Of a DNA stretch of 34,079 nucleotides, positions 25,958 through 33,386 are shown one piece after another. Within the stretch, counting starts at the first letter, position 1, and every line of letters begins with the position of its first letter. Origin of the DNA: Treponematales bacterium (lineage in GTDB: Bacteria > Spirochaetota > Spirochaetia > Treponematales > UBA12059); NCBI GenBank assembly GCA_041741035.1, contig JBGSKZ010000251.1:1-34079 (forward strand). Reading direction: 5' to 3'. The position numbers and the translations under genes are program-made. The notes under the pieces were generated by a model, which worked only from the letters and a program-made list of their open reading frames with translations, made no database searches and was not told where the DNA came from.

Positions 25958-26695
25958 CTATGTTTTCGGCGTTCCCGGCCGGCACACCCTGCGTGTAAGC
26001 AGGAATACCAGAGTCGGGCTTACGAGCAGCCCTCCTATTGGGGTAAGGCCGAGTTTGGTGAACATGGTCGGCATTAAGCGGGAGTAGGCCCACAGGCCCT
26101 GGTCGAAGGCGCTGATCTCCAGATAGATGAGGAAGGCTACGCATATGAAGGTAGAGATCGCATAGCCGACCCAAGGCCGTACAGGCAGGGATCGCAAGCC
26201 GAATAGATGCCCACCCTTGGAGAACCAGAACCGCTCTCGCAGTATCGCCAAAGTAAGGAGATGGGCGCCTACTAGGAGCAATGCGTCCAGGAAGGCGGCC
26301 CGCCAGAAGGTTTGAACGAAGAAGAGCTTCATTTCCACGGTGTTTTCCCCAAAGTAGGGTATGCCGCGGTTTATTCCTTCATACATAGGCACCTGAGATA
26401 CCTCCCAGAAGAAGTTAAAGAAGAAACCGAAGATCACGATAAGGATTTCCGGCTGTATAAGGAAGCGCAGGGCGGGGTTCTTTAGCCCTGGATCCGCGAC
26501 GGTTTCCGGGGGAATGTACTGCCCTGCCTTGCGGAGGGCTACGTTCACGAGTGCCCCAAGGCCAAGCCCGGCCAGGATCACGGCGATGCCTAAGAACATG
26601 CGGGGAAGGTTCGCCAAGCCCGTGAAAACCAGGAAAGCCCCGACTAGGATACCGGAGGTGCGGACAAGGGTTCTAAGAATGACGAGCGGTTTCAT
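25958..26695 (-). CDS. polytopic integral membrane protein, function unknown
   Basis: 245-aa ORF with about 6-7 hydrophobic segments. No catalytic motif recognised. Stop TAG 25958-25960. Confidence 0.7.
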   Translation of the reverse strand: MKPLVILRTLVRTSGILVGAFLVFTGLANLPRMFLGIAVILAGLGLGALVNVALRKAGQYIPPETVADPGLKNPALRFLIQPEILIVIFGFFFNFFWEVSQVPMYEGINRGIPYFGENTVEMKLFFVQTFWRAAFLDALLLVGAHLLTLAILRERFWFSKGGHLFGLRSLPVRPWVGYAISTFICVAFLIYLEISAFDQGLWAYSRLMPTMFTKLGLTPIGGLLVSPTLVFLLTRRVCRPGTPKT

Positions 26696-26780
26696 GGGCT
26701 GGCTCCTCAGCTAAGATTACGCCAGTATAACTCAGGTCGTAGAACAGCGCGAGAAAAACCAATATCTACCAAGGTTATGT

Positions 26781-26919
26781 CGGGCCCGGCGGATTCGGCT
26801 TCCGCGCGTCGCCATCCTGGCGACGGCGCTCCAGCCCGCCTCGTTCGCTGACGGTGCCATCCCTGGCACCTTTTCGTCGCTTCGCGACGCGCTCGCTCGG
26901 TTCGAATCCGTCCAGCCCG
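26781..26919. repeat. 139-nt tRNA-Pro-3'-end-derived repeat, unit A
   Basis: It starts CGGGCCCGGCGGATTCGG and ends CGGTTCGAATCCGTCCAGCCCG (inverted termini copying the tRNA-Pro T-arm and acceptor end). The core holds three short hairpins. It is near-identical to 32965..33104. Confidence 0.8.
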
Positions 26920-26928
26920 TCCGGATAT

Positions 26929-26968
26929 AAAAACAACGGGCCACCCAGTAAGGTGACCCGCTGTTTTT
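26929..26968. terminator. A-tract / GC hairpin / T-tract (bidirectional intrinsic-terminator-like)
   Basis: AAAAACAACGGGCCACCC-AGTAA-GGTGACCCGCTGTTTTT, with one stem mismatch. It is a copy of the hairpin downstream of tRNA-Pro. Confidence 0.55.
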
Positions 26969-26972
26969 ATGA

Positions 26973-27111
26973 CGGGCTGGGCGGATTCGGTCTACGGGGC
27001 TCGACCTCCTGTCTCGCCCCTCCGACCCGCCTACGCGCTTCTCGGCGCATCCCTGCGCCTCGCCCTCGCGTTCGCTCGGGACAGCGCTCCGGTTCGAATC
27101 CGCCCAGCCCG
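26973..27111. repeat. 139-nt tRNA-Pro-3'-end-derived repeat, unit B
   Basis: It starts CGGGCTGGGCGGATTCGG and ends CGGTTCGAATCCGCCCAGCCCG. The core diverges from unit A but keeps the GCA-TCCC-TGC type hairpin. It lies exactly 192 nt after unit A. Confidence 0.75.
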
Positions 27112-27118
27112 TCTGGAT

Positions 27119-27161
27119 ATAAAAACAGCGGGTCACCCAGGAAGGTGACCCGCTGTTTTTA
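27119..27161. terminator. A-tract / GC hairpin / T-tract (bidirectional intrinsic-terminator-like)
   Basis: AAAAACAGCGGGTCACC-CAGGAA-GGTGACCCGCTGTTTTT, a 12-bp perfect stem. Confidence 0.6.
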
Positions 27162-27163
27162 CG

Positions 27164-27208
27164 TCGGGCTGGGCGGATTCGAACCGCCGGTCTCTTGGTC
27201 CCGAACCA
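27164..27208 (-). pseudogene. orphan 3' 45 nt of tRNA-Pro(CGG) (att-like direct repeat)
   Basis: TCGGGCTGGGCGGATTCGAACCGCCGGTCTCTTGGTCCCGAACCA is identical to 33157..33201 of the intact tRNA-Pro. Identity ends at 27208, and the 5' half of the tRNA is absent. Confidence 0.85.
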
Positions 27209-27583
27209 CTGCTTACGCAAAGACAATCGAAAATATTCCATATTATACAACGAATTAGCTGGCGGGTCAATAACAAGTGAAAATAGAATATTTCATATTC
27301 GTTAACGTTTTTGTTGACGTTTATTGACAATGCAGAGTCAGGGAATAAAGCAATTAGGTAATGGTTCTAGGAACAGGGGCTCGGGCGCTATCAAGAGCTT
27401 GTAGTATGCGGCAGGGTTGGGGTTTTGTATAGCGGAGAATGGGGAAGTTTAGTGCAGTTCCTTAATGCTTGTTACAGTAAATATTCAGCATATTTTGAAA
27501 TAGACTATTGTGTTAATGCAAAAATAGCACCATAATTGCATTAGTGATAAGTGCTATTTCTAGAATTGAGAAAGGAGAAGGGG

Positions 27584-28741
27584 ATGCATGAGAGATCGAG
27601 CGGGCGCTATGTCGATATCTCCGTAGCGGGAGAAAAGGCTTGCGCCTTCATTCCGGCTCCCCTCCCTCCAGCAATTTCGCCCTCCCCCGGGCTGCGGCGG
27701 AAGCTGGACGAGGCTCTCCACGCGCTTGGAGGACTTTCCGCCGCCACGCCATTTTTCCCCGACCGCGCCCTTCTTCTCTACCTTTATGTACGGAAAGAGG
27801 CGGTGCTCTCATCGCAGATCGAGGGGACGCAGTCGAGTCTAGCCGACCTGCTGCTCTACGAGCAGGAAGCCATGCCGGGCGTGCCAATCGACGATGTCGA
27901 GGAAGTATCGAGTTACGTAGCCGCGTTGAATTATGGATTCGAGCGCCTTCGTGGGGGAATGCCCCTGTCCAAGCGCCTCCTAAGGGATATCCATAGGATA
28001 CTACTCTCGACCGGGCGTGGCTCAGATATGACGCCGGGAGAGTTCAGGAGGGTCCAGAACTGGGTGGGCGGGACATCGCCATCGCGGGCTTCCCACGTTC
28101 CGCCTCCCCCAGAGGAGGTGGAGCCCTGCATGGATGCCCTTGAGAGCTACTTCCATTCCCCTGAAGCGGAAGACGCGCCGCTCCTCTCGGCCGCTTTTGC
28201 CCATGTCCAGTTCGAGACCATCCATCCCTTCTTAGACGGTAACGGCAGGGTAGGCCGACTTCTTATCGCCCTTATACTCACTGAGGCAGGCCTCCTGACT
28301 GAGCCCATTCTCTACCTCTCCCTCTATTTCAAGTCCCACCGCGACGAGTACTTTCGCCTGCTTAATGGCGTACGCGCCGAGGGCGGATGGGAGCCTTGGC
28401 TCGAGTTCTTCGCCACGGCGACGAGGGACTGCGCCCGCCAGGCAGTAGAGACGGCCCATCGCGTCACGGTCCTCATCCAAGCGGACCGGGAGCGTCTTTC
28501 TACTCTTGGCCGGGCTATGCCCAAGGCGCTAGCCATTTTCGAGCTTTTCCGCACGAGCCTCACGAGAACCATCGCCCAGCTGAGCAAGGCGACCGGGTTC
28601 TCCCCCAACACCGTGGCGAGCGCGATAGCCGACCTTGAAGGACTCGGGATACTGCGCGAGCTTACGGGCAAGAAACGCGACCGGGTCTATGTATACGCGC
28701 CTCTCCTCGACGTGCTGGAGGAGGGGACCGAACCATTGTGA
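27584..28741 (+). CDS. Fic-family protein (class II, N-terminal inhibitory helix; predicted AMPylase) with a C-terminal wHTH-like region
   Basis: Fic motif: HPFLDGNGRVGRLL (HxFx[D/E]GNGRxxR). Inhibitory motif: SSQIEG ([S/T]xxxE[G/N]) upstream. ATG 27584 is preferred (AAGGAGAAGGGG just upstream) over the track GTG 27551. Confidence 0.9.
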   Translation: MHERSSGRYVDISVAGEKACAFIPAPLPPAISPSPGLRRKLDEALHALGGLSAATPFFPDRALLLYLYVRKEAVLSSQIEGTQSSLADLLLYEQEAMPGVPIDDVEEVSSYVAALNYGFERLRGGMPLSKRLLRDIHRILLSTGRGSDMTPGEFRRVQNWVGGTSPSRASHVPPPPEEVEPCMDALESYFHSPEAEDAPLLSAAFAHVQFETIHPFLDGNGRVGRLLIALILTEAGLLTEPILYLSLYFKSHRDEYFRLLNGVRAEGGWEPWLEFFATATRDCARQAVETAHRVTVLIQADRERLSTLGRAMPKALAIFELFRTSLTRTIAQLSKATGFSPNTVASAIADLEGLGILRELTGKKRDRVYVYAPLLDVLEEGTEPL

Positions 28742-28940
28742 AAAGGATGATAGCACGACGAGCATATGGAGCAGCTTTCTGCCTGCGGAGTTTAAAAACA
28801 TACTATACTGAGTAGAAAGGTCTGGCTGTAGGAACCAAACTTATATAACAAGAACTCAGGAGAATCTGGAGCGGTTAAATAATACTAAAGCCTGAAAAAC
28901 CGGAATAATAAGGTCGTTCAATGATGAAGAGAAGATCATT

Positions 28941-30191
28941 ATGAGCAAGTCTATAGCTCTCGCTGTCATCTGTCTTAGCACCTTTGTCTACTTTTCCTGC
29001 CTCTCTACAGAGGCTGCCCATACCTACAAGGAGTTAGCGCCGGACATAGCCCCCCATATGGTGTCCATGGATTCAGTCCCTGATTCTCCTCAGAATAGAG
29101 ACATGCGCTATCTTTACGATCAAATGATGGGAACTTACCCCTTCCTCCCTATGCTCAAGCGTGCAGGCATAGACTGGGAACAACGCGCCAAAGACCGCCT
29201 CTCCCGCGATTATTCTGACTATGGTATCCACAGTGACATCTTTCGTAAAACCCTGGATGGCCTCATGGCTGGCGCGCTCGGTCCCTATGGGCACGCAAGG
29301 ATACTTTCCAGCTATGACTATGCCGTCCGTGGCGGGGGCGGTGATTGGGATGAATCCGCTCCGGATTTACCTAAAAAAAGGGCCATGGCCTTCGATCCTG
29401 AGGGACCTTACAAGGACGCAAAGATCCGCGCCCAGATCGGGGGGCCGGTTCTTCCTCCTATGGATCTCTCTATGGAGGATCGAAGCGATTATCTCTACCT
29501 TCGGGTCAAGAGTTTCTCGCTGGCTCCTTCCCAAATGGCCGATTGGAACGATCGAATCTTTTCCTTTTACCGCGACTATTCGGCATATGGAAAGCCGGTC
29601 ATCATCGACATCCGCGGAAATGGAGGCGGCCTTGGATCAGCCATTGCTATACTCTTCGCACCATTCCTGAATGAAGCACGAGGCGCATCCTTTCGCATCC
29701 TGTTCCGAGATAGTCCCCTGACGAGGGAATGGACGGAGGGCTTGGAAGGGATTATGCCTATTACTGAGATATCCGGCCCCATCGCCCATCCTGATGACCT
29801 TGCATCCTTTGACTATTTTGTTAACTTTACCTTTTTCATGGAACCCCTTGACGGCTCAGCCTCCATTCCCCACGGTCCCCTCTACATCATTCAGGATAGG
29901 GGCTGTTTCTCCGCTTCCGACGCTCTCCTTTCATGGGTAAAAGCCACCGGTTTCGCGACCATCGTAGGTGTTGAGAACTCAGGGGGCGATGGGATTCTCT
30001 TCCCCCCTCTCTATTTTAAGCTTCCAAACTCCGGATTCATCGCCAACATCTCTTGGAGTTGTGGCCTCAATCCCGATGGAACTTACAATAATGAGGTGGG
30101 TACGGCTCCTGACATCCTCATCGCCGCGGGCGAAGACCCCATACAAGCCTGCATCAAGGATTTCCTTGGAAAGGGCGTTTTCGTCCCCTGA
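28941..30191 (+). CDS. secreted S41-family (tail-specific/C-terminal processing-like) peptidase
   Basis: Signal peptide: MSKSIALAVICLSTFVYFSCLSTEA. Motifs: VIIDIRGNGGGLGS and RGCFSASDALLSWVKA (Ser nucleophile context), typical of S41. Confidence 0.75.
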   Translation: MSKSIALAVICLSTFVYFSCLSTEAAHTYKELAPDIAPHMVSMDSVPDSPQNRDMRYLYDQMMGTYPFLPMLKRAGIDWEQRAKDRLSRDYSDYGIHSDIFRKTLDGLMAGALGPYGHARILSSYDYAVRGGGGDWDESAPDLPKKRAMAFDPEGPYKDAKIRAQIGGPVLPPMDLSMEDRSDYLYLRVKSFSLAPSQMADWNDRIFSFYRDYSAYGKPVIIDIRGNGGGLGSAIAILFAPFLNEARGASFRILFRDSPLTREWTEGLEGIMPITEISGPIAHPDDLASFDYFVNFTFFMEPLDGSASIPHGPLYIIQDRGCFSASDALLSWVKATGFATIVGVENSGGDGILFPPLYFKLPNSGFIANISWSCGLNPDGTYNNEVGTAPDILIAAGEDPIQACIKDFLGKGVFVP

Positions 30192-30365
30192 TCGCATGAT
30201 GGAGCCCATGTTCCGAAACCACGGACTTTTGGAACGAGAATAAGGAAGGACCATTGGAATTGTCCGCGATTTCGTTAAAAATTGGGCGAATTTAGCGTAG
30301 GTAATATAGTTAAATGGATTGCCGAAGAGCTCTGTAAGGTCTGCTATGCCCAGAGGATAGCGAAT

Positions 30366-30640
30366 GGTAATCCCATCCTCTACCTCTCCCCCTATTTTTT
30401 GTCCCACCGCGCCGAGTACTATCGCCTGCTCAATGGCGTACGCGCCGAGGGCGGATGGGAGCTTTGGATCGAGTTCTTCGCCACGGCGACGAGGGATTGC
30501 GCCCGCCAGGCAGTAGAGACGGCTCATCGCGTCCCGGTCCTCATCCAAGCGGACCGGGAGCGTCTTTCTACGCTCGGTCGAGCTATGCCCAAGGCTCTAG
30601 CCATCTTCGAGCTTTTCCGTACGAGCCTCATGAGAACCAT
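30366..30640 (+). pseudogene. internal fragment of a second Fic-family gene
   Basis: NPILYLSPYFLSHRAEYYRLLNGVRAEGGWELWIEFFATATRDCARQAVETAHRVPVLIQADRERLSTLGRAMPKALAIFELFRTSLMRT closely parallels Fic residues encoded at about 28300-28570. It lacks both the Fic catalytic motif region and the C-terminus. Confidence 0.8.
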
Positions 30641-30739
30641 ACGATTAGTAAGCATAAAGATCGGCGCGCCGCTTACTCTTAGCTCGCCGGTCTTTACTGG
30701 TTTTATAATTATTATGTTATCAGCTTATTATAATAAATA

Positions 30740-31045
30740 TTAAGATGAAGACTCGGGCGATATCAGTACAGCTTCGCGCATGAGTTCCGGAGTTACCTGT
30801 TTGGCTAGTATGAGGTACAGAGATCCCGTGCTTGCTAAGTTGATAGTCTTATCCATTCGTGCTTGAACGGTTTCCGGGCGGAGCTTCCACATGGCGCCCG
30901 TTAGCGGATCGACGATGAGCCAGCCTATGAATCCTCCCAGCAGGAAATTCCCCGCGATGTACCAGCCGCCCTCAAGCGAGCCCGATATCCAGATTTCTTT
31001 CTTATCATAGCCTGGGGATGCGAACTCGATCCGGTAACGGTCTGA
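30740..31045 (-). pseudogene. 5'-truncated remnant of a small membrane/lipoprotein-like gene
   Basis: Open frame with no start codon: SDRYRIEFASPGYDKKEIWISGSLEGGWYIAGNFLLGGFIGWLIVDPLTGAMWKLRPETVQARMDK...*. A stop lies directly upstream (TAA 31046-31048 on -). No ATG/GTG/TTG occurs before the Met of GAMWKL. Confidence 0.4.
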
Positions 31046-31201
31046 TTAAAGGAATCCATCCTAAACAGAATGAATATCATGGTTTTACAAAGCATGTCGG
31101 CTCGTCGCTTGAGAAGCACAATAGTTTGTGCTCCTATTTTTTCTTGACAGGATTATAGCGGCCATCTATGCTTTTAATCAGGAATTATACATTGAGGAAT
31201 T

Positions 31202-31798
31202 ATGAATAAATTACTTGCGCTTTTGTTATTGATGCTTGCGCTATCTTTGGTTCCATTGGCCGCTCAGGGTAATGATTTTTACGTCGAATTTGCCGAGTTC
31301 GGCGGTCCTGTAGTGCCTACGCTCAGCCGTATCCTTGTCGCGATCCCTGTTGAAATGGTCTGGGAAACTCCATTGGCTCGAAGATTCGGCGTTGAGATTT
31401 GGTATATGGCATACTCGCCCTATCTCTGGCCAGATTTATTCTTGGAACTAGGCGCTCAGCTAAACTACTATGCAATTCTTCGTGAGCGGTCTTCGCTCCA
31501 GATAAGCCTAGGTACGGCGTACGAGTACTTTGGGGGAGCCTTTGGAGTACCCTTTAAGGCTGGGTTAAGATGGGAAATTGGCTTGCCTATGCAACTTTGG
31601 ACCGGCCTCGCGTTTGAAGTGCTATTGTGGCCAGGTTCTGGAGGAGTCGAGCTGACTATACCCCTCCGGCTTCGATTGGTTTCGGGTCTCGATTTGTCTT
31701 TTCTTCCTGGAGTAACTGCCTATACCGACCTGGATAGATTTATCGTTAATCCAAGGATTGCTTTAGCAGTTGGCTACCGGTTCAAGGTGTCTAAATGA
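31202..31798 (+). CDS. small secreted protein, possibly an outer-membrane beta-barrel
   Basis: Signal peptide: MNKLLALLLLMLALSLVPLAA-QG. Alternating hydrophobic pattern. Aromatic-rich C-terminus: LAVGYRFKVSK. Confidence 0.65.
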   Translation: MNKLLALLLLMLALSLVPLAAQGNDFYVEFAEFGGPVVPTLSRILVAIPVEMVWETPLARRFGVEIWYMAYSPYLWPDLFLELGAQLNYYAILRERSSLQISLGTAYEYFGGAFGVPFKAGLRWEIGLPMQLWTGLAFEVLLWPGSGGVELTIPLRLRLVSGLDLSFLPGVTAYTDLDRFIVNPRIALAVGYRFKVSK

Positions 31799-32886
31799 AA
31801 CATACCTATGCGCTTATAGCTATTCTTTCTGCCTTGCTTGTTTCTTGTGGAGAAATGCCATTTTATCGTTCTGGAGCTACCCTCGGTCGCTTGACCTTTG
31901 TTACGAGCGATGGAACCGCGCGATCAGCAAGCAGAGGCACTATAGTTGGCTCTGCATCGTCAAGGATGGTTACCGATCCATCCATGGATTATGTAAGCGG
32001 CTTCTATAGTACCTACGGTACGCTTGTTGGCACATACACACCAACAGCCGTGGTGCTTCCAATAGAGCTTGGCGAGATACTCCTGCTTGACGAGGGTAAT
32101 CCTTTCGGGAATATTTTCATACGGAGTCCGGATATCGCTGCTCTTGACGATCCGAGCCAGTTTCTAGCTGATTTTGGCTCGCCTGTTGCCTCGAATTTTA
32201 TAAGCTTGCCGCAGGGTAGCTATGACAAGCTTGAGCTTCGTTTCATGGCAGGACATGGCGTTCACGTCGGGAGAGGCAATCCAAACAGGCCAGACCATAC
32301 GACATGGACTGAGAACCAGATTACCGTCGAACTTCCCGGCTACGGTGGAGCGTTAAGCGATATAGCTTCACGGCTTCCTGTCGAAATAGGTGAGTATATC
32401 TTCGAAGAAGATTTCACATTCAGCTTTTCGGGCGACTTTAGCGCCGAAGGATACCTCGACCAACTCAAGAGGGAGGTTTTCATCCCCGAGCCAGGCCGGT
32501 ACTTCGAACGGAAGGCGCAAGTAGGCGATCTCTATACTTTTACACTTCAGTATCTCTACCCTCGCCAGGTTCCGGCCTCTCAGAAGTATCAGCCTGACTC
32601 TGACACCCATTATGTAGAGTGGCATGTATTCACAAACCAAGTTCCCATGGCACGGACGGCTGAAGACCGGGAATTCGACTACAATACCGATACCCTTCTC
32701 ATGCCCATGGATCCGATTACGCTGTCGCTCGTACGCAAGAAGGCTACTATTGTCGTTTCGCTTGATACCAAGGACTTGATAGAAGTTTATGATAACGGCA
32801 CAGATTTAGATAAGTCAGACGACATCATTGTGCTAGCAGACAAGTACTGGGAGCGTTTCTCGGTCTCTTTGACATATGGAGATTAG
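31795..32886 (+). CDS. lipoprotein, function unknown
   Basis: Lipobox: ILSALLVSC. Its ATG overlaps the upstream TGA as ATGA, implying co-translation with 31202..31798. Stop TAG 32884-32886. Confidence 0.75.
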   Translation: MKHTYALIAILSALLVSCGEMPFYRSGATLGRLTFVTSDGTARSASRGTIVGSASSRMVTDPSMDYVSGFYSTYGTLVGTYTPTAVVLPIELGEILLLDEGNPFGNIFIRSPDIAALDDPSQFLADFGSPVASNFISLPQGSYDKLELRFMAGHGVHVGRGNPNRPDHTTWTENQITVELPGYGGALSDIASRLPVEIGEYIFEEDFTFSFSGDFSAEGYLDQLKREVFIPEPGRYFERKAQVGDLYTFTLQYLYPRQVPASQKYQPDSDTHYVEWHVFTNQVPMARTAEDREFDYNTDTLLMPMDPITLSLVRKKATIVVSLDTKDLIEVYDNGTDLDKSDDIIVLADKYWERFSVSLTYGD

Positions 32887-32964
32887 AGATAGAAACCCAG
32901 TGCAAATATTCAAGTACAATGGTGCTGACTAACGCTGGTTTATAAGTCAGCAACTTTCTAGTAT

Positions 32965-33104
32965 CGGGCTGGGCGGATTCGGCTTCCGCGCGTCGACATC
33001 CTGTCGACAGCGCTCCAGCCCGCCTCGCTCGCTGACGGTGCCATCCCTGGCACCTTTTCGCCGCTACCGCGGCGCGCTCGCTCGGTTCGAATACGTCCAG
33101 CCCG
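32965..33104. repeat. tRNA-Pro-3'-end-derived repeat, unit A' (copy of 26781..26919)
   Basis: It starts CGGGCTGGGCGGATTCGG and ends CGGTTCGAATACGTCCAGCCCG. It differs from unit A mainly by paired (compensatory) changes in two hairpin stems. It lies 193 nt before the tRNA-Pro 3' end. Confidence 0.8.
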
Positions 33105-33111
33105 TGCGGAT

Positions 33112-33153
33112 ATAAAAAAAGCGGGTCACCCGATAAGGTGACCCGCTGTTTTT
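33112..33153 (-). terminator. intrinsic terminator downstream of tRNA-Pro
   Basis: On the - strand: AAAAACAGCGGGTCACC-TTATCG-GGTGACCCGCTTTTTTT. Confidence 0.7.
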
Positions 33154-33156
33154 ACG

Positions 33157-33229
33157 TCGGGCTGGGCGGATTCGAACCGCCGGTCTCTTGGTCCCGAACC
33201 AAGCGCGCTAGCCTCTGCGCTACAGCCCG
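33157..33229 (-). tRNA. tRNA-Pro (anticodon CGG)
   Basis: The - strand folds as CGGGCTG TA GCGC AGAGGCTA GCGC G CTTGG TTCGGGA CCAAG AGACC GGCGG TTCGAAT CCGCC CAGCCCG A. This is a full cloverleaf with G37. CCA is not encoded. Confidence 0.9.
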
Positions 33230-33232
33230 TAA

Positions 33233-33261
33233 AAGAAAAAACCCGCGCAGGGCGCGGGTTT
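33233..33261 (-). terminator. hairpin plus T-run between tRNA-Asp and tRNA-Pro
   Basis: On the - strand: AAACCCGCGC-CCT-GCGCGGGTTTTTTCTTTT. Confidence 0.55.
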
Positions 33262-33335
33262 CGGGAGCGACGGGGATTGAACCCGCGATCTCCGGCTTGA
33301 CAGGCCGGCGCGATAACCAGCTTCGCTACGCCCCC
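33262..33335 (-). tRNA. tRNA-Asp (anticodon GTC)
   Basis: The - strand folds as GGGGGCG TA GCGA AGCTGGTTA TCGC G CCGGC CTGTCAA GCCGG AGATC GCGGG TTCAATC CCCGT CGCTCCC G. The discriminator is G. CCA is not encoded. Confidence 0.9.
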
Positions 33336-33356
33336 ACGTCATCGCTGACAGGCGGC

Positions 33357-33386
33357 ACTATACCGAGCGCGGGGCGTTCGTGTCAA
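33357..33386 (-). promoter_or_regulatory. sigma70-like promoter for the tRNA-Asp/tRNA-Pro unit
   Basis: On the - strand: TTGACA (33386-33381), an 18-nt spacer, TATAGT (33362-33357). This lies about 21 nt upstream of the mature tRNA-Asp 5' end. Confidence 0.6.

What the first reader, a model, noticed from the sequence alone, without database searches (positions are those of the whole stretch)
26781..27208. 192-nt-periodic repeats built from the tRNA-Pro 3' end, with compensatory changes in internal hairpins
CGGGCTGGGCGGATTCG (the reverse complement of the tRNA-Pro acceptor/T-arm end) recurs at 26781, 26973 and 27165, exactly 192 nt apart. It recurs again at 32965 and 33158, 193 nt apart. Each 139-nt unit ends with the forward copy CGAATCCGCCCAGCCCG, so its termini can pair over about 17 bp, and each is followed by the same A-tract/hairpin/T-tract. 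Units A (26781) and A' (32965) differ mainly by paired substitutions that preserve stems. GTCGCC-ATCC-TGGCGAC becomes GTCGAC-ATCC-TGTCGAC (C:G to A:T). CGTCGC-TTC-GCGACG becomes CGCCGC-TACC-GCGGCG (T:A to C:G). In unit B the central hairpin GGTGCCA-TCCC-TGGCACC becomes GGCGCA-TCCC-TGCGCC. This covariation argues for selection on structure, either as RNA or as a DNA cruciform/MITE-like element. The arrangement recalls the E. coli tyrT-distal 178-bp repeats, which contain the tRNA 3' end. I cannot place it in any RNA family I know.
Basis: seen in the sequence. Interest (0 to 1): 0.65.

Follow-up and report, generated by a model that had tools for sequence, protein, structure and literature searches.

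The report
Structured repeats trailing tRNA genes
The repeats are three copies of a conserved, tightly folded 140-base module that sits just behind many tRNA and tmRNA genes in this group of spirochaetes. Each copy is clamped by an inverted and a direct copy of its own tRNA's tail, so it is a spirochaete counterpart of the long-unexplained 'tRNA-linked repeats' of E. coli.

Summary
The three ~140-nt units (A 26779-26922, B 26971-27114, A' 32963-33107, functional strand minus) are not local debris.

They belong to a family with about 30 copies in this genome. A covariance model finds it in 33 of 41 relatives of the same order, 1-34 copies each (7-34 in the same family).

Copies lie on the tRNA's strand about 40-50 nt behind tRNA or tmRNA genes, singly or in tandem. 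Each is closed by a helix made of an inverted copy and a direct copy of that tRNA's own 3' end (T loop to discriminator).

Over 124 copies, 94% of predicted pairs are standard and 34 of 37 pairs show compensatory double changes.

Rfam 15 has no match. The closest known thing is the E. coli tRNA-linked repeat (TLR/rtT, RrA/B/F) class, which shares position, tandem arrangement and the cognate 3'-end copy.

The array at 26779-27208 is the original tRNA-Pro trailer. A ~5.75-kb insert in the tRNA-Pro gene displaced it, leaving a 67-nt exact repeat.

My best reading is a co-transcribed trailer RNA released by tRNA-processing enzymes, possibly binding CsrA. A DNA-level recombination module is not excluded. 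I could get no expression data.

The parts
33261..33336 (-). tRNA-Asp(GTC), first gene of the tRNA-Asp/tRNA-Pro pair. A sigma-70-like promoter (TTGACA-18-TATAGT) lies at 33357-33386.
   Evidence: ARAGORN; Rfam; promoter scan
33156..33229 (-). tRNA-Pro(CGG). Its 3' end (T loop to discriminator, here called X) is the sequence copied into the modules.
   Evidence: sequence
33108..33155 (-). Terminator hairpin T (12-bp GC-rich stem at 33120-33147, A-tract before and T-tract after, so it can act in both directions), followed by a TATAT/TATAAG-like spacer.
   Evidence: sequence
32963..33107 (-). Module A' (134.7 bits). On the minus strand the inverted copy X' is 33085-33105 and the direct copy X is 32965-32983. 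The core folds into P2 (with hairpins P2a and P2b) and P3.
   Evidence: CM search; single-sequence MFE equals the consensus fold, z = -5.0
27212..32962 (.). Inserted segment of about 5.75 kb with mixed, mostly lower GC. It carries a Fic/DOC gene (27551-28741), an S41 peptidase gene (28941-30191), a partial duplicate of the Fic C-terminus, and two ORFs with no Pfam match. No integrase gene.
   Evidence: repeat D1
27165..27208 (-). Displaced 3' part of tRNA-Pro (44 nt, from the anticodon stem to the discriminator). It lies inside a 67-nt block (27142-27208) that is identical to 33135-33201, an attachment-site-type direct repeat.
   Evidence: alignment
27115..27164 (-). Second copy of terminator hairpin T.
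   Evidence: (I4)
26971..27114 (-). Module B (103.7 bits). It has a perfect 18-bp closing helix. Its core belongs to a different sub-lineage, which clusters with modules behind tRNA-Val(TAC) in other genera.
26923..26970 (-). Third copy of terminator hairpin T.
   Evidence: I5
26779..26922 (-). Module A (126.5 bits), 92% identical to A'. The differences sit mostly in paired positions and are compensated.

Best explanation
The units belong to a conserved family of tRNA/tmRNA-gene-linked structured modules, a spirochaete analogue of the E. coli tRNA-linked repeats.

Read on the tRNA's strand, the layout is:
- the tRNA, ending in X;
- usually a terminator hairpin T;
- X', the reverse complement of tRNA positions ~52-73;
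- the motif GAACCG;
- a ~100-nt core;
- the motif GAAGCC;
- X, a copy of positions 56/57-73 including the discriminator.

This block can repeat one to three times. X' and X pair into a 16-18-bp closing helix P1, which reproduces the stacked acceptor and T stems of the neighbouring tRNA. The core folds into P2, a helix with tandem G.A pairs that carries the GNRA-type hairpin P2a and the hairpin P2b with loop CA(N)GGAUG. A long hairpin P3 has the loop CA(G/C)GANG.

Inferred mechanism, none of it shown:
- The module is transcribed with the tRNA, either by read-through of T or directly where no T is present.
- It is cut out by the tRNA end-processing enzymes (RNase P at the 5' end, RNase Z at the 3' end), because P1 with its discriminator looks like a tRNA minihelix.
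- It then acts as a small RNA whose level follows tRNA-operon transcription.
- The P2b loop matches the high-affinity CsrA consensus. One concrete candidate role is therefore CsrA binding, as reported in vitro and in pull-downs for the E. coli rRNA-linked repeats RrA/B/F.

In this window the two-module array at 26779-27208 is the original trailer of tRNA-Pro(CGG). A ~5.75-kb insert in the tRNA gene pushed it 6 kb away. The insert carries the replacement tRNA 3' part, a T hairpin and module A'.
For: Family and position
- Own genome: 31 nhmmer hits. All hits on contigs with a nearby tRNA are on the tRNA's strand, with first copies 39-52 nt downstream, behind 16 tRNA genes.
- Relatives: 33 of 41 genomes and 19 of 24 genera of the same order carry it, with scores up to 142 bits.
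- The tRNA sits directly upstream in 23 of 23 non-truncated loci and in 58 of 80 further loci. Three more loci lie behind tmRNA.

Cognate ends
- The direct copy matches its own tRNA at 12.4 of 13 positions on average, against 8.5 of 13 for non-cognate tRNAs.
- The inverted copy matches at 10.2 of 12, against 8.3 (sequences).
- tRNA-Pro(CGG) loci in three genomes (two genera) show the tRNA, X and X' changing together.

Structure
- 124 copies give 94.4% standard pairs, against 37-40% when partners are slid.
- 34 of 37 pairs show double changes. The covariation score is 0.653, against 0.165 shuffled.
- The MFE fold of A' alone equals the consensus.

Strand and co-transcription
- Tandem G.A pairs and GNRA-type loops make sense only on the tRNA-sense strand.
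- Purine-purine mismatches number 111, against 10 pyrimidine-pyrimidine.
- Modules lie between co-oriented tRNA-Ser and tRNA-Arg genes with no terminator (contig C70). In locus L054 a module starts 9 nt after the tRNA.

Age and stability
- Mean identity among own-genome copies is 69%.
- Cores cluster by tRNA identity across genera.

CsrA lead
- CA(N)GGAUG is kept in about 85-90% of P2b loops.
- csrA is present in this genome.
- The E. coli repeats RrA/B/F are transcribed by read-through of T1, processed, and bind CsrA and Hfq (PMC8144298).

Island
- A 67-nt exact repeat starts in the anticodon stem.
- The same layout occurs on contig C745, where a 39-kb insert separates tRNA-Gly(TCC) from its trailer modules.
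Against: - There are no expression data.
- G.U pairs are as rare as A.C (33 versus 38 of 3244 core cells). That is unusual for a functional RNA. It fits selection for strict Watson-Crick pairing, such as on DNA or on both strands.
- Most first copies sit behind a strong intrinsic terminator, so little read-through may reach them.
- GCGAAGC-type hairpins and sheared G.A pairs are also stable in single-stranded DNA (own knowledge).
- The P3 loop is CACGANG, without GGA, in 28% of copies.
- csrA is also present in relatives that lack the module, so the CsrA link is only a lead.
- A generic processing signal would not need to match the neighbouring tRNA. Cognate ends therefore need a further explanation, such as gene conversion or pairing of X' with the tRNA end.
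Confidence: 0.55

Rival explanations
1. The module is a DNA-level element: a gene-less, non-autonomous integrative or recombination cassette that targets the T-loop-to-3'-end segment of tRNA and tmRNA genes.

- The palindrome X-T-X' would fold in single-stranded DNA into a hairpin that imitates the double-stranded target, as in folded attC or CTX-phage attP sites.
- The two direct X copies would be the attL and attR junctions.
- The core structure would be kept for recognition by a recombinase acting in trans.
For: - The direct repeat starts inside the T loop, exactly as for integrases that cross over in the T loop. The tRNA is restored by the copy next to it.
- tRNA and tmRNA genes are both classic integration targets, and the module follows both.
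- Pairing is strictly Watson-Crick, with G.U no commoner than A.C.
- Several unrelated core classes sit between X' and X at other tRNAs, as if the clamp held exchangeable cassettes.
- Some cores at different tRNAs are close relatives: unit B with tRNA-Val units, and Met_C107 with the Gly(TCC) module.
- Islands lie next to such modules here and on contig C745.
Against: - There are no near-identical copies at different loci. Mean identity is 69%.
- Cores cluster by tRNA type across genera, which indicates long vertical residence.
- No mechanism is known that would rewrite both X and X' for each new tRNA.
- The islands here use the anticodon-stem site, not the X copies.
- The strand-specific features (tandem G.A pairs, purine-rich linkers, one fixed orientation relative to the tRNA) and the placement inside tRNA clusters fit a transcript.
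- Core mixing between loci can be explained by gene conversion between resident modules.
Confidence: 0.25
2. The functional product is a small RNA from the opposite strand, convergent with the tRNA. Each unit would be a gene that ends in a tRNA-like T-arm and acceptor 3' end, followed by its own terminator. That terminator is the same bidirectional hairpin T.
For: - On the opposite strand every unit is directly followed by hairpin T with a T-tract, the normal layout of an RNA gene.
- That strand carries the longer tRNA-like end, 22 nt including the whole T loop (I7-I12).
- Both strands fold well, with z = -6.0 to -6.5.
- There is no G.U versus A.C asymmetry.
Against: - The conserved tandem G.A pairs would become tandem C.U mismatches. 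The GNRA-type and GGA loops would become UUUC- and UCC-type loops.
- Mismatches would then be mostly pyrimidine-pyrimidine.
- Loci without T (the C70 tRNA cluster, L045, L054) would leave such a gene without a terminator, reading antisense into a tRNA.
- No promoter-like site was found upstream on that strand.
Confidence: 0.1
3. The repeats are passive debris: leftovers of tandem duplication or repeated integration and excision at tRNA-Pro, with no selected function.
For: - The tRNA 3' part is duplicated by an insertion in this window.
- Arrays can grow and shrink by unequal recombination. Compare tRNA-Val(TAC) in this genome with the same-genus relative G001.
Against: - The family is conserved across at least 19 genera behind more than 15 different tRNAs.
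- 34 of 37 pairs are maintained by compensatory changes, and loop motifs are more than 90% conserved.
- Debris would not keep a fold for that long.
Confidence: 0.03

Closest known systems
E. coli tRNA-linked repeats (TLRs; the tyrT-distal 178-bp repeats / rtT RNA, and RrA/B/F behind rrnA/B/D), as described in PMC8144298, which cites Egan & Landy 1978 and Rudd 1999
   Same: - They lie directly behind tRNA (or rRNA) genes on the same strand, with 1-5 tandem copies at several loci.
- The last 17-19 nt are identical to the 3' end of the upstream gene.
- They sit between or after terminators.
- The tyrT units also hold a 10-nt inverted copy (GGGGAAGGAT), a CGAGCG-AAA-GCGAG hairpin and a GC-rich hairpin. 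The spirochaete model aligns to all four units in register at 9-17 bits.
- RrB has a hairpin with a CAGGAC loop and binds CsrA.
   Different: - Homology is not established. Rfam RtT does not hit the window, and the spirochaete model finds nothing in a whole-genome scan of MG1655.
- The spirochaete module has a much longer closing helix (16-18 bp) and an extra P3 arm.
- It is far more widespread within a genome (about 16-20 of 49 tRNA genes) and also follows tmRNA.
Csr/Rsm sponge RNAs (CsrB, RsmY/Z) and the TwoAYGGAY motif (RF01731)
   Same: GGA motifs are presented in hairpin loops. The P2b loop CA(N)GGAUG equals the core of the SELEX consensus RUACARGGAUGU (own knowledge). csrA is present in the genome.
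   Different: Each module has only one or two such loops. The P3 loop lacks GGA in 28% of copies. No Rfam hit to these families. In spirochaetes the known CsrA antagonist is the protein FliW (abstracts listed).
attL/attR duplications of integrative elements in tRNA and tmRNA genes
   Same: There is a direct repeat of the tRNA 3' part. The window also holds a genuine case: the 67-nt repeat bracketing the ~5.75-kb insert.
   Different: The modules are 140-nt, gene-less, folded and conserved across genera. Each also carries an inverted copy, and the same core goes with many different tRNAs.
tRNA-end-clamped modules noted earlier in this scan in other spirochaetes and in CPR bacteria (unchecked AI notes)
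   Same: The same design: an inverted plus a direct copy of the host tRNA or tmRNA end closing a folded module of about 120-190 nt.
   Different: The CPR families have other cores. I did not test any relationship to them.

Membership tests
E. coli tRNA-linked repeats (TLR / RtT) | Lies immediately downstream of a tRNA or rRNA gene, in the same orientation | tested here: met
   same strand. First copies 39-52 nt behind the tRNA in the own genome; median 42 nt in 58 further loci.
E. coli tRNA-linked repeats (TLR / RtT) | The 3'-terminal 18-19 nt are identical to the 3' end of the upstream gene | tested here: met
   a 17-19-nt copy from T-loop position 56/57 to the discriminator. 24 of 35 are perfect over the 13 variable positions.
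E. coli tRNA-linked repeats (TLR / RtT) | One to five tandem copies at several loci of one genome | tested here: met
   31 hits behind 16 tRNA genes, with 1-3 copies per locus.
E. coli tRNA-linked repeats (TLR / RtT) | Sequence or structure homology to RtT (Rfam RF00391) or to the E. coli units | tested here: inconclusive
   No RF00391 match at E<=10. Model R1 hits all four tyrT units in register, but at only 9-17 bits. RrB scores 6 bits. Nothing in a whole-genome scan of MG1655.
E. coli tRNA-linked repeats (TLR / RtT) | Transcribed with the upstream gene by terminator read-through and processed to a discrete RNA | not testable with these tools
Csr/Rsm-type CsrA-binding RNA | Several GGA motifs exposed in hairpin loops | tested here: inconclusive
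   the P2b loop has GGA in about 85-90% of 124 copies. The P3 loop has it in 53%, and 28% read CACGA. Overall GGA count is 5.8 per element against 5.1 in shuffles.
Csr/Rsm-type CsrA-binding RNA | Host encodes CsrA | tested here: met
   csrA on own-genome contig C814 and in 39 of 41 relatives. It is also present in genomes without the module, so this does not discriminate.
Csr/Rsm-type CsrA-binding RNA | Binds and titrates CsrA | not testable with these tools
   Needs EMSA or pull-down.
MITE / transposon-derived repeat | Constant terminal inverted repeats, target-site duplication, many near-identical copies | tested here: not met
   The terminal repeats differ at every locus and equal the neighbouring tRNA end. 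There is no target-site duplication. Mean identity of copies is 69%.
Remnant of a tRNA-integrating element (att scar) | Direct repeat of the tRNA 3' part bracketing foreign DNA with an integrase or its remains | tested here: not met
   This holds for the ~5.75-kb insert except that it has no integrase. For the modules themselves there is no coding capacity (Pfam negative), and the core is conserved and folded across genera.
tRNA gene or pseudogene | Cloverleaf recognised by ARAGORN or Rfam RF00005 | tested here: not met
   only the two real tRNAs are called.

The most novel reading that the evidence does not exclude
tRNA-end-clamped modules may form one old, widespread and unrecognised class of RNA genes riding on tRNA, tmRNA and rRNA operons. 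The class would include this spirochaete family, the E. coli TLRs and the CPR families noted elsewhere in this scan.

Each member would be excised by the tRNA-processing machinery, because its closing helix replicates the host gene's acceptor/T-stem minihelix. Its level would report tRNA-operon transcription to post-transcriptional regulators. In Treponematales it would be the first RNA antagonist of CsrA, alongside FliW.

In a read-through transcript the antisense copy X' could also capture the tRNA's own 3' strand. That would give a switch between making tRNA and making module.
Probability: 0.15. Interest if true: 0.85.

Novelty: new variant of a known kind. Interest (0 to 1): 0.68.

Why it matters
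The E. coli tRNA-linked repeats have been known since 1978 and still have no accepted function. I did not find them described outside Enterobacterales.

This family shares their hallmark, a copy of the host gene's 3' end. It sits in a distant phylum, has many more copies, and has a fold supported by compensatory changes at 34 of 37 pairs. That gives a sound comparative basis for asking three things:
- why such modules carry their own tRNA's end;
- whether they are RNAs or DNA cassettes;
- whether they tie tRNA transcription to regulators such as CsrA.

The family is missing from Rfam, so it is also an annotation gap. It also explains a recurring pitfall: triple tRNA-end repeats at island borders are only partly integration scars.

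Tried and rejected
- **Pattern scan of genome contigs:** the pattern was too loose. None of the 122 matches lies behind a tRNA. That spent the only scan and gave no organism names and no breadth beyond the phylum.
- **Empty site for the island:** the left flank (25960-26700) has no DNA match in the three same-genus genomes. I could not recover a pre-insertion state.
- **G.U versus A.C strand test on 124 copies:** uninformative, 33 versus 38.
- **MFE energies:** they hardly differ between strands.
- **Coding potential:** the two ORFs spanning the array (26732-27250 minus, 26854-27258 plus) have no Pfam match. The indels between copies also argue against coding.
- **Homology to E. coli TLRs:** only weak local hits and none genome-wide. 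I claim analogy, not membership.
- **csrA presence or absence:** does not track the module.
- **Literature:** searches found no description of such elements in spirochaetes.
Full report
**1. The observation**

The window holds tRNA-Asp (33261-33336) and tRNA-Pro(CGG) (33156-33229), both on the minus strand. The 17-mer CGGGCTGGGCGGATTCG is the reverse complement of the tRNA-Pro 3' end. It is exact at 26973, 27165, 32965 and 33158, and 15 of 17 at 26781. The spacings are 192, 192 and 193 nt.

Each ~140-nt unit ends in the forward copy, with 0-2 mismatches, and is followed by the same A-tract/hairpin/T-tract.

**2. A family, not local debris**

Sensitive BLASTN and an nhmmer profile find 31 copies in this 3.95-Mb assembly. 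ARAGORN shows that all hits on contigs with a nearby tRNA lie on the strand of a tRNA gene. The first copy sits 39-52 nt behind the tRNA, and further copies follow in tandem.

The host genes are 16 tRNA genes: Met (two), Ser (three), Ala(CGC) (two), Ala(GGC), Cys, Pro(CGG), Pro(GGG), Leu(CAG), Thr(CGT), Asn, Lys(UUU), and a displaced Gly(UCC). Four more tRNAs (Glu, two genes; Val(UAC); Gly(CCC)) carry the same clamp around other core types.

**3. Layout on the tRNA's strand**

The order is: tRNA ending in X; usually a locus-specific intrinsic-terminator hairpin T; a TATAAG-like spacer; X'; GAACCG; a ~100-nt core; GAAGCC; X.
- X' is the reverse complement of tRNA positions ~52-73.
- X copies positions 56/57-73, including the discriminator.
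- The block T-X'-core-X can repeat. The 192-nt period in the window is one module plus one T.

**4. The ends always match the neighbouring tRNA**

Over 35 tRNA-module pairs I compared the 13 variable positions: the T-stem 3' strand, the acceptor 3' strand and the discriminator.
- X matches its own tRNA at 12.4 positions on average, and 24 pairs are perfect. Other tRNAs' ends match at 8.5.
- X' matches at 10.2 of 12, against 8.3.

tRNA-Pro(CGG) loci from three genomes in two genera have different T stems, and X and X' have changed with them.

**5. Distribution**

A covariance model built from 14 own-genome copies finds the family in 33 of 41 relatives and 19 of 24 genera of the same order. Genomes carry 1-34 copies, with scores up to 142 bits.

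In an even sample of the phylum it occurs in 33 of 301 genomes. Nearly all are in the same order, with a few strong hits elsewhere. It is absent from the genera with complete 2.8-Mb and 1.1-Mb genomes.

In relatives a tRNA lies directly upstream in 23 of 23 loci not cut by a contig end, and in 58 of 80 further loci with a median distance of 42 nt. Three of the remaining loci lie behind tmRNA genes.

That placement is my inference, not a tool result.

**6. Structure**

RNAalifold on the 14 own copies predicts 37 pairs, 25 of them with compensatory double changes.

On 124 copies aligned to the model:
- 94.4% of cells are standard pairs, against 37-40% when the 3' partners are slid by 1-3 columns.
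- 34 of 37 pairs show double changes.
- The covariation score is 0.653, against 0.165 for shuffles and at most 0.085 for slides.

The alignment was fitted to the model, which favours the structure. However, the unfitted MAFFT alignment and the single-sequence MFE of A' (identical to the consensus, z = -5.0) agree with it.

The fold has these parts:
- P1 is the X':X helix, 16-18 bp.
- P2 is a helix with two tandem G.A pairs. These are replaced by Watson-Crick pairs in some copies.
- P2 carries P2a (CCGAGC-GNRA-GCGAGG, again with a tandem G.A) and P2b (a 6-7-bp GC stem with loop CA(N)GGAUG).
- P3 is a long hairpin with loop CA(G/C)GANG.

Conserved single-stranded stretches are purine-rich.

**7. 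Which strand folds, and RNA or DNA**

In favour of the tRNA-sense strand:
- The tandem G.A pairs and GNRA-type loops would be C.U mismatches and UUUC loops on the other strand.
- Mismatches at modelled pairs are purine-purine 111 times and pyrimidine-pyrimidine 10 times.
- The orientation relative to the tRNA never varies.
- In the C70 cluster the modules lie between co-oriented tRNA genes at ~45-nt spacers with no terminator. In L054 the module starts 9 nt after the tRNA. At least there, it must be part of the tRNA transcript.

Against a simple RNA reading:
- G.U pairs are as rare as A.C (33 versus 38 of 3244 cells).
- Most first copies lie behind a strong terminator.
- The stable motifs also work in single-stranded DNA (own knowledge).

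I could not obtain expression data.

**8. What is known**

Rfam 15 matches only the two tRNAs at gathering scores, and nothing meaningful at E<=10.

The literature search led to the E. coli tRNA-linked repeats (PMC8144298):
- There are 22 repeats at ten loci, with 1-5 per locus.
- Their hallmark is that the last 18-19 bp equal the 3' end of the upstream tRNA or rRNA gene.
- Three of them (RrA/B/F) lie between the dual terminators of rrn operons. They are made by read-through of T1, processed, short-lived, and bind Hfq and CsrA.
- Their function is otherwise unknown.

I fetched the tyrT-tyrV locus of MG1655. Each 178-bp unit ends in the 19-nt tRNA-Tyr end. Each also holds a 10-nt inverted copy (GGGGAAGGAT), a CGAGCG-AAA-GCGAG hairpin and a GC-rich hairpin.

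The spirochaete model aligns full-length, and on the right strand, to all four units. The scores are only 9-17 bits, barely above the tRNA genes themselves. RrB gets 6 bits, and a whole-genome scan finds nothing.

The two families therefore share design and hallmark. Common descent is not shown.

**9. Functional lead**

The P2b loop CA(N)GGAUG on a CA/UG-closed stem matches the core of the CsrA SELEX consensus (own knowledge). It is kept in about 85-90% of 124 copies. The P3 loop is the CsrB-type word CAGGA(U/A/C)G in 53% of copies, but CACGANG in 28%.

csrA is present in this genome and in 39 of 41 relatives, including those without the module. No RNA antagonist of CsrA turned up for spirochaetes in my searches. 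This is a testable lead and no more. I give it about 0.2.

**10. Why the ends might need to be cognate**

A closing helix plus discriminator that replicates the tRNA minihelix would let RNase P and RNase Z excise the module. That alone does not require the neighbour's sequence. Two additions are possible:
- Gene conversion between the tRNA end and X, about 190 nt apart, with X' following by compensation. This fits X being closer to the tRNA than X' is.
- A role for pairing between X' and the tRNA's own 3' strand. In a modelled read-through transcript the minimum-energy fold pairs the tRNA 3' end with X' and lets the downstream X pair with the tRNA 5' strand.

Viewed as DNA, the same layout is a ~190-bp insertion in the T loop that restores the tRNA, as integrative elements do. 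That keeps the DNA-cassette rival alive.

Against recent mobility:
- Copies average 69% identity.
- Cores cluster by tRNA type across genera (Pro(CGG), Ala(CGC), Met).

Some mixing does occur. Unit B groups with tRNA-Val(UAC) modules of other genera. Gene conversion between resident modules would explain it.

**11. The window itself**

A 67-nt block (27142-27208) is identical to 33135-33201. It covers half of T and the last 44 nt of tRNA-Pro, starting in the anticodon stem. The 5.75 kb between the repeats has mixed, mostly lower GC. It holds Fic, S41-peptidase and unknown genes and no integrase.

The array tRNA-fragment/T/B/T/A (27208 down to 26779) is therefore the old trailer of tRNA-Pro. 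The replacement tRNA 3' part, T and module A' came with the insert. A' is 92% identical to A and collinear with it through T, so the insert probably came from a related tRNA-Pro locus.

The same thing happened on contig C745. There a 44-nt tRNA-Gly(UCC) fragment and its modules lie 39 kb from the tRNA.

**12. Verdict**

This is a real, strongly conserved, uncatalogued structured module family. It is best filed as a new variant of the tRNA-linked-repeat kind. The molecule that acts (RNA or DNA) and its function remain open.

Noticed in passing
own-genome contigs C399:1665-1830, C507, C821, C700, C552 (not in the window): A second small repeat (TGCGGTCCGAGACTCGCAGGACCGCAGGGG...GGGGG-CTAG-CCCCC) is nested in, or replaces, the core between X' and X at several tRNAs. 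At least two further core classes share the same clamp behind tRNA-Ala(CGC), Leu(CAG), Gly(CCC) and Glu(UUC).
   Followed up: partly
own-genome contig C745:5033-44480: tRNA-Gly(UCC) is separated from a 44-nt copy of its 3' half and its trailer modules by about 39 kb. This is probably the prophage mentioned in earlier notes on this genome.
   Followed up: partly
window 27242-27270 (minus strand): A near-consensus promoter (TTGACC-17-TATAAT) at the left edge of the insert points outward. It faces the truncated tRNA-Pro fragment, modules B and A, and the ORF at 25958-26695.
   Followed up: no
window 33238-33262 (minus strand): A terminator-like hairpin with a T-tract lies between tRNA-Asp and tRNA-Pro. 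Either the two genes are separate units, or such hairpins are routinely read through.
   Followed up: no
window 28304-28572 and 30372-30640: A 269-nt direct repeat (92% identical) duplicates the C-terminal helix-turn-helix part of the Fic gene as a separate 153-codon ORF (30282-30743).
   Followed up: no
loci L260, L221, L223 (relatives G013, G011, G014): The same module family also follows tmRNA genes, in one case as two tandem copies.
   Followed up: partly
locus L200 (relative G019, contig C1, 8618-9283): Two modules face each other on opposite strands (261-406 plus, 440-588 minus) with no tRNA within 260 nt. This is an exception to the usual layout.
   Followed up: no
locus L188 (E. coli MG1655 rrnB distal region, 535-565): The rRNA-linked repeat RrB contains a hairpin AAATCCGCC-GGGA-GCGGATTTGAAC. 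It looks like a tRNA T-arm 3' strand paired to its inverted copy, although the upstream gene is 5S rRNA.
   Followed up: no
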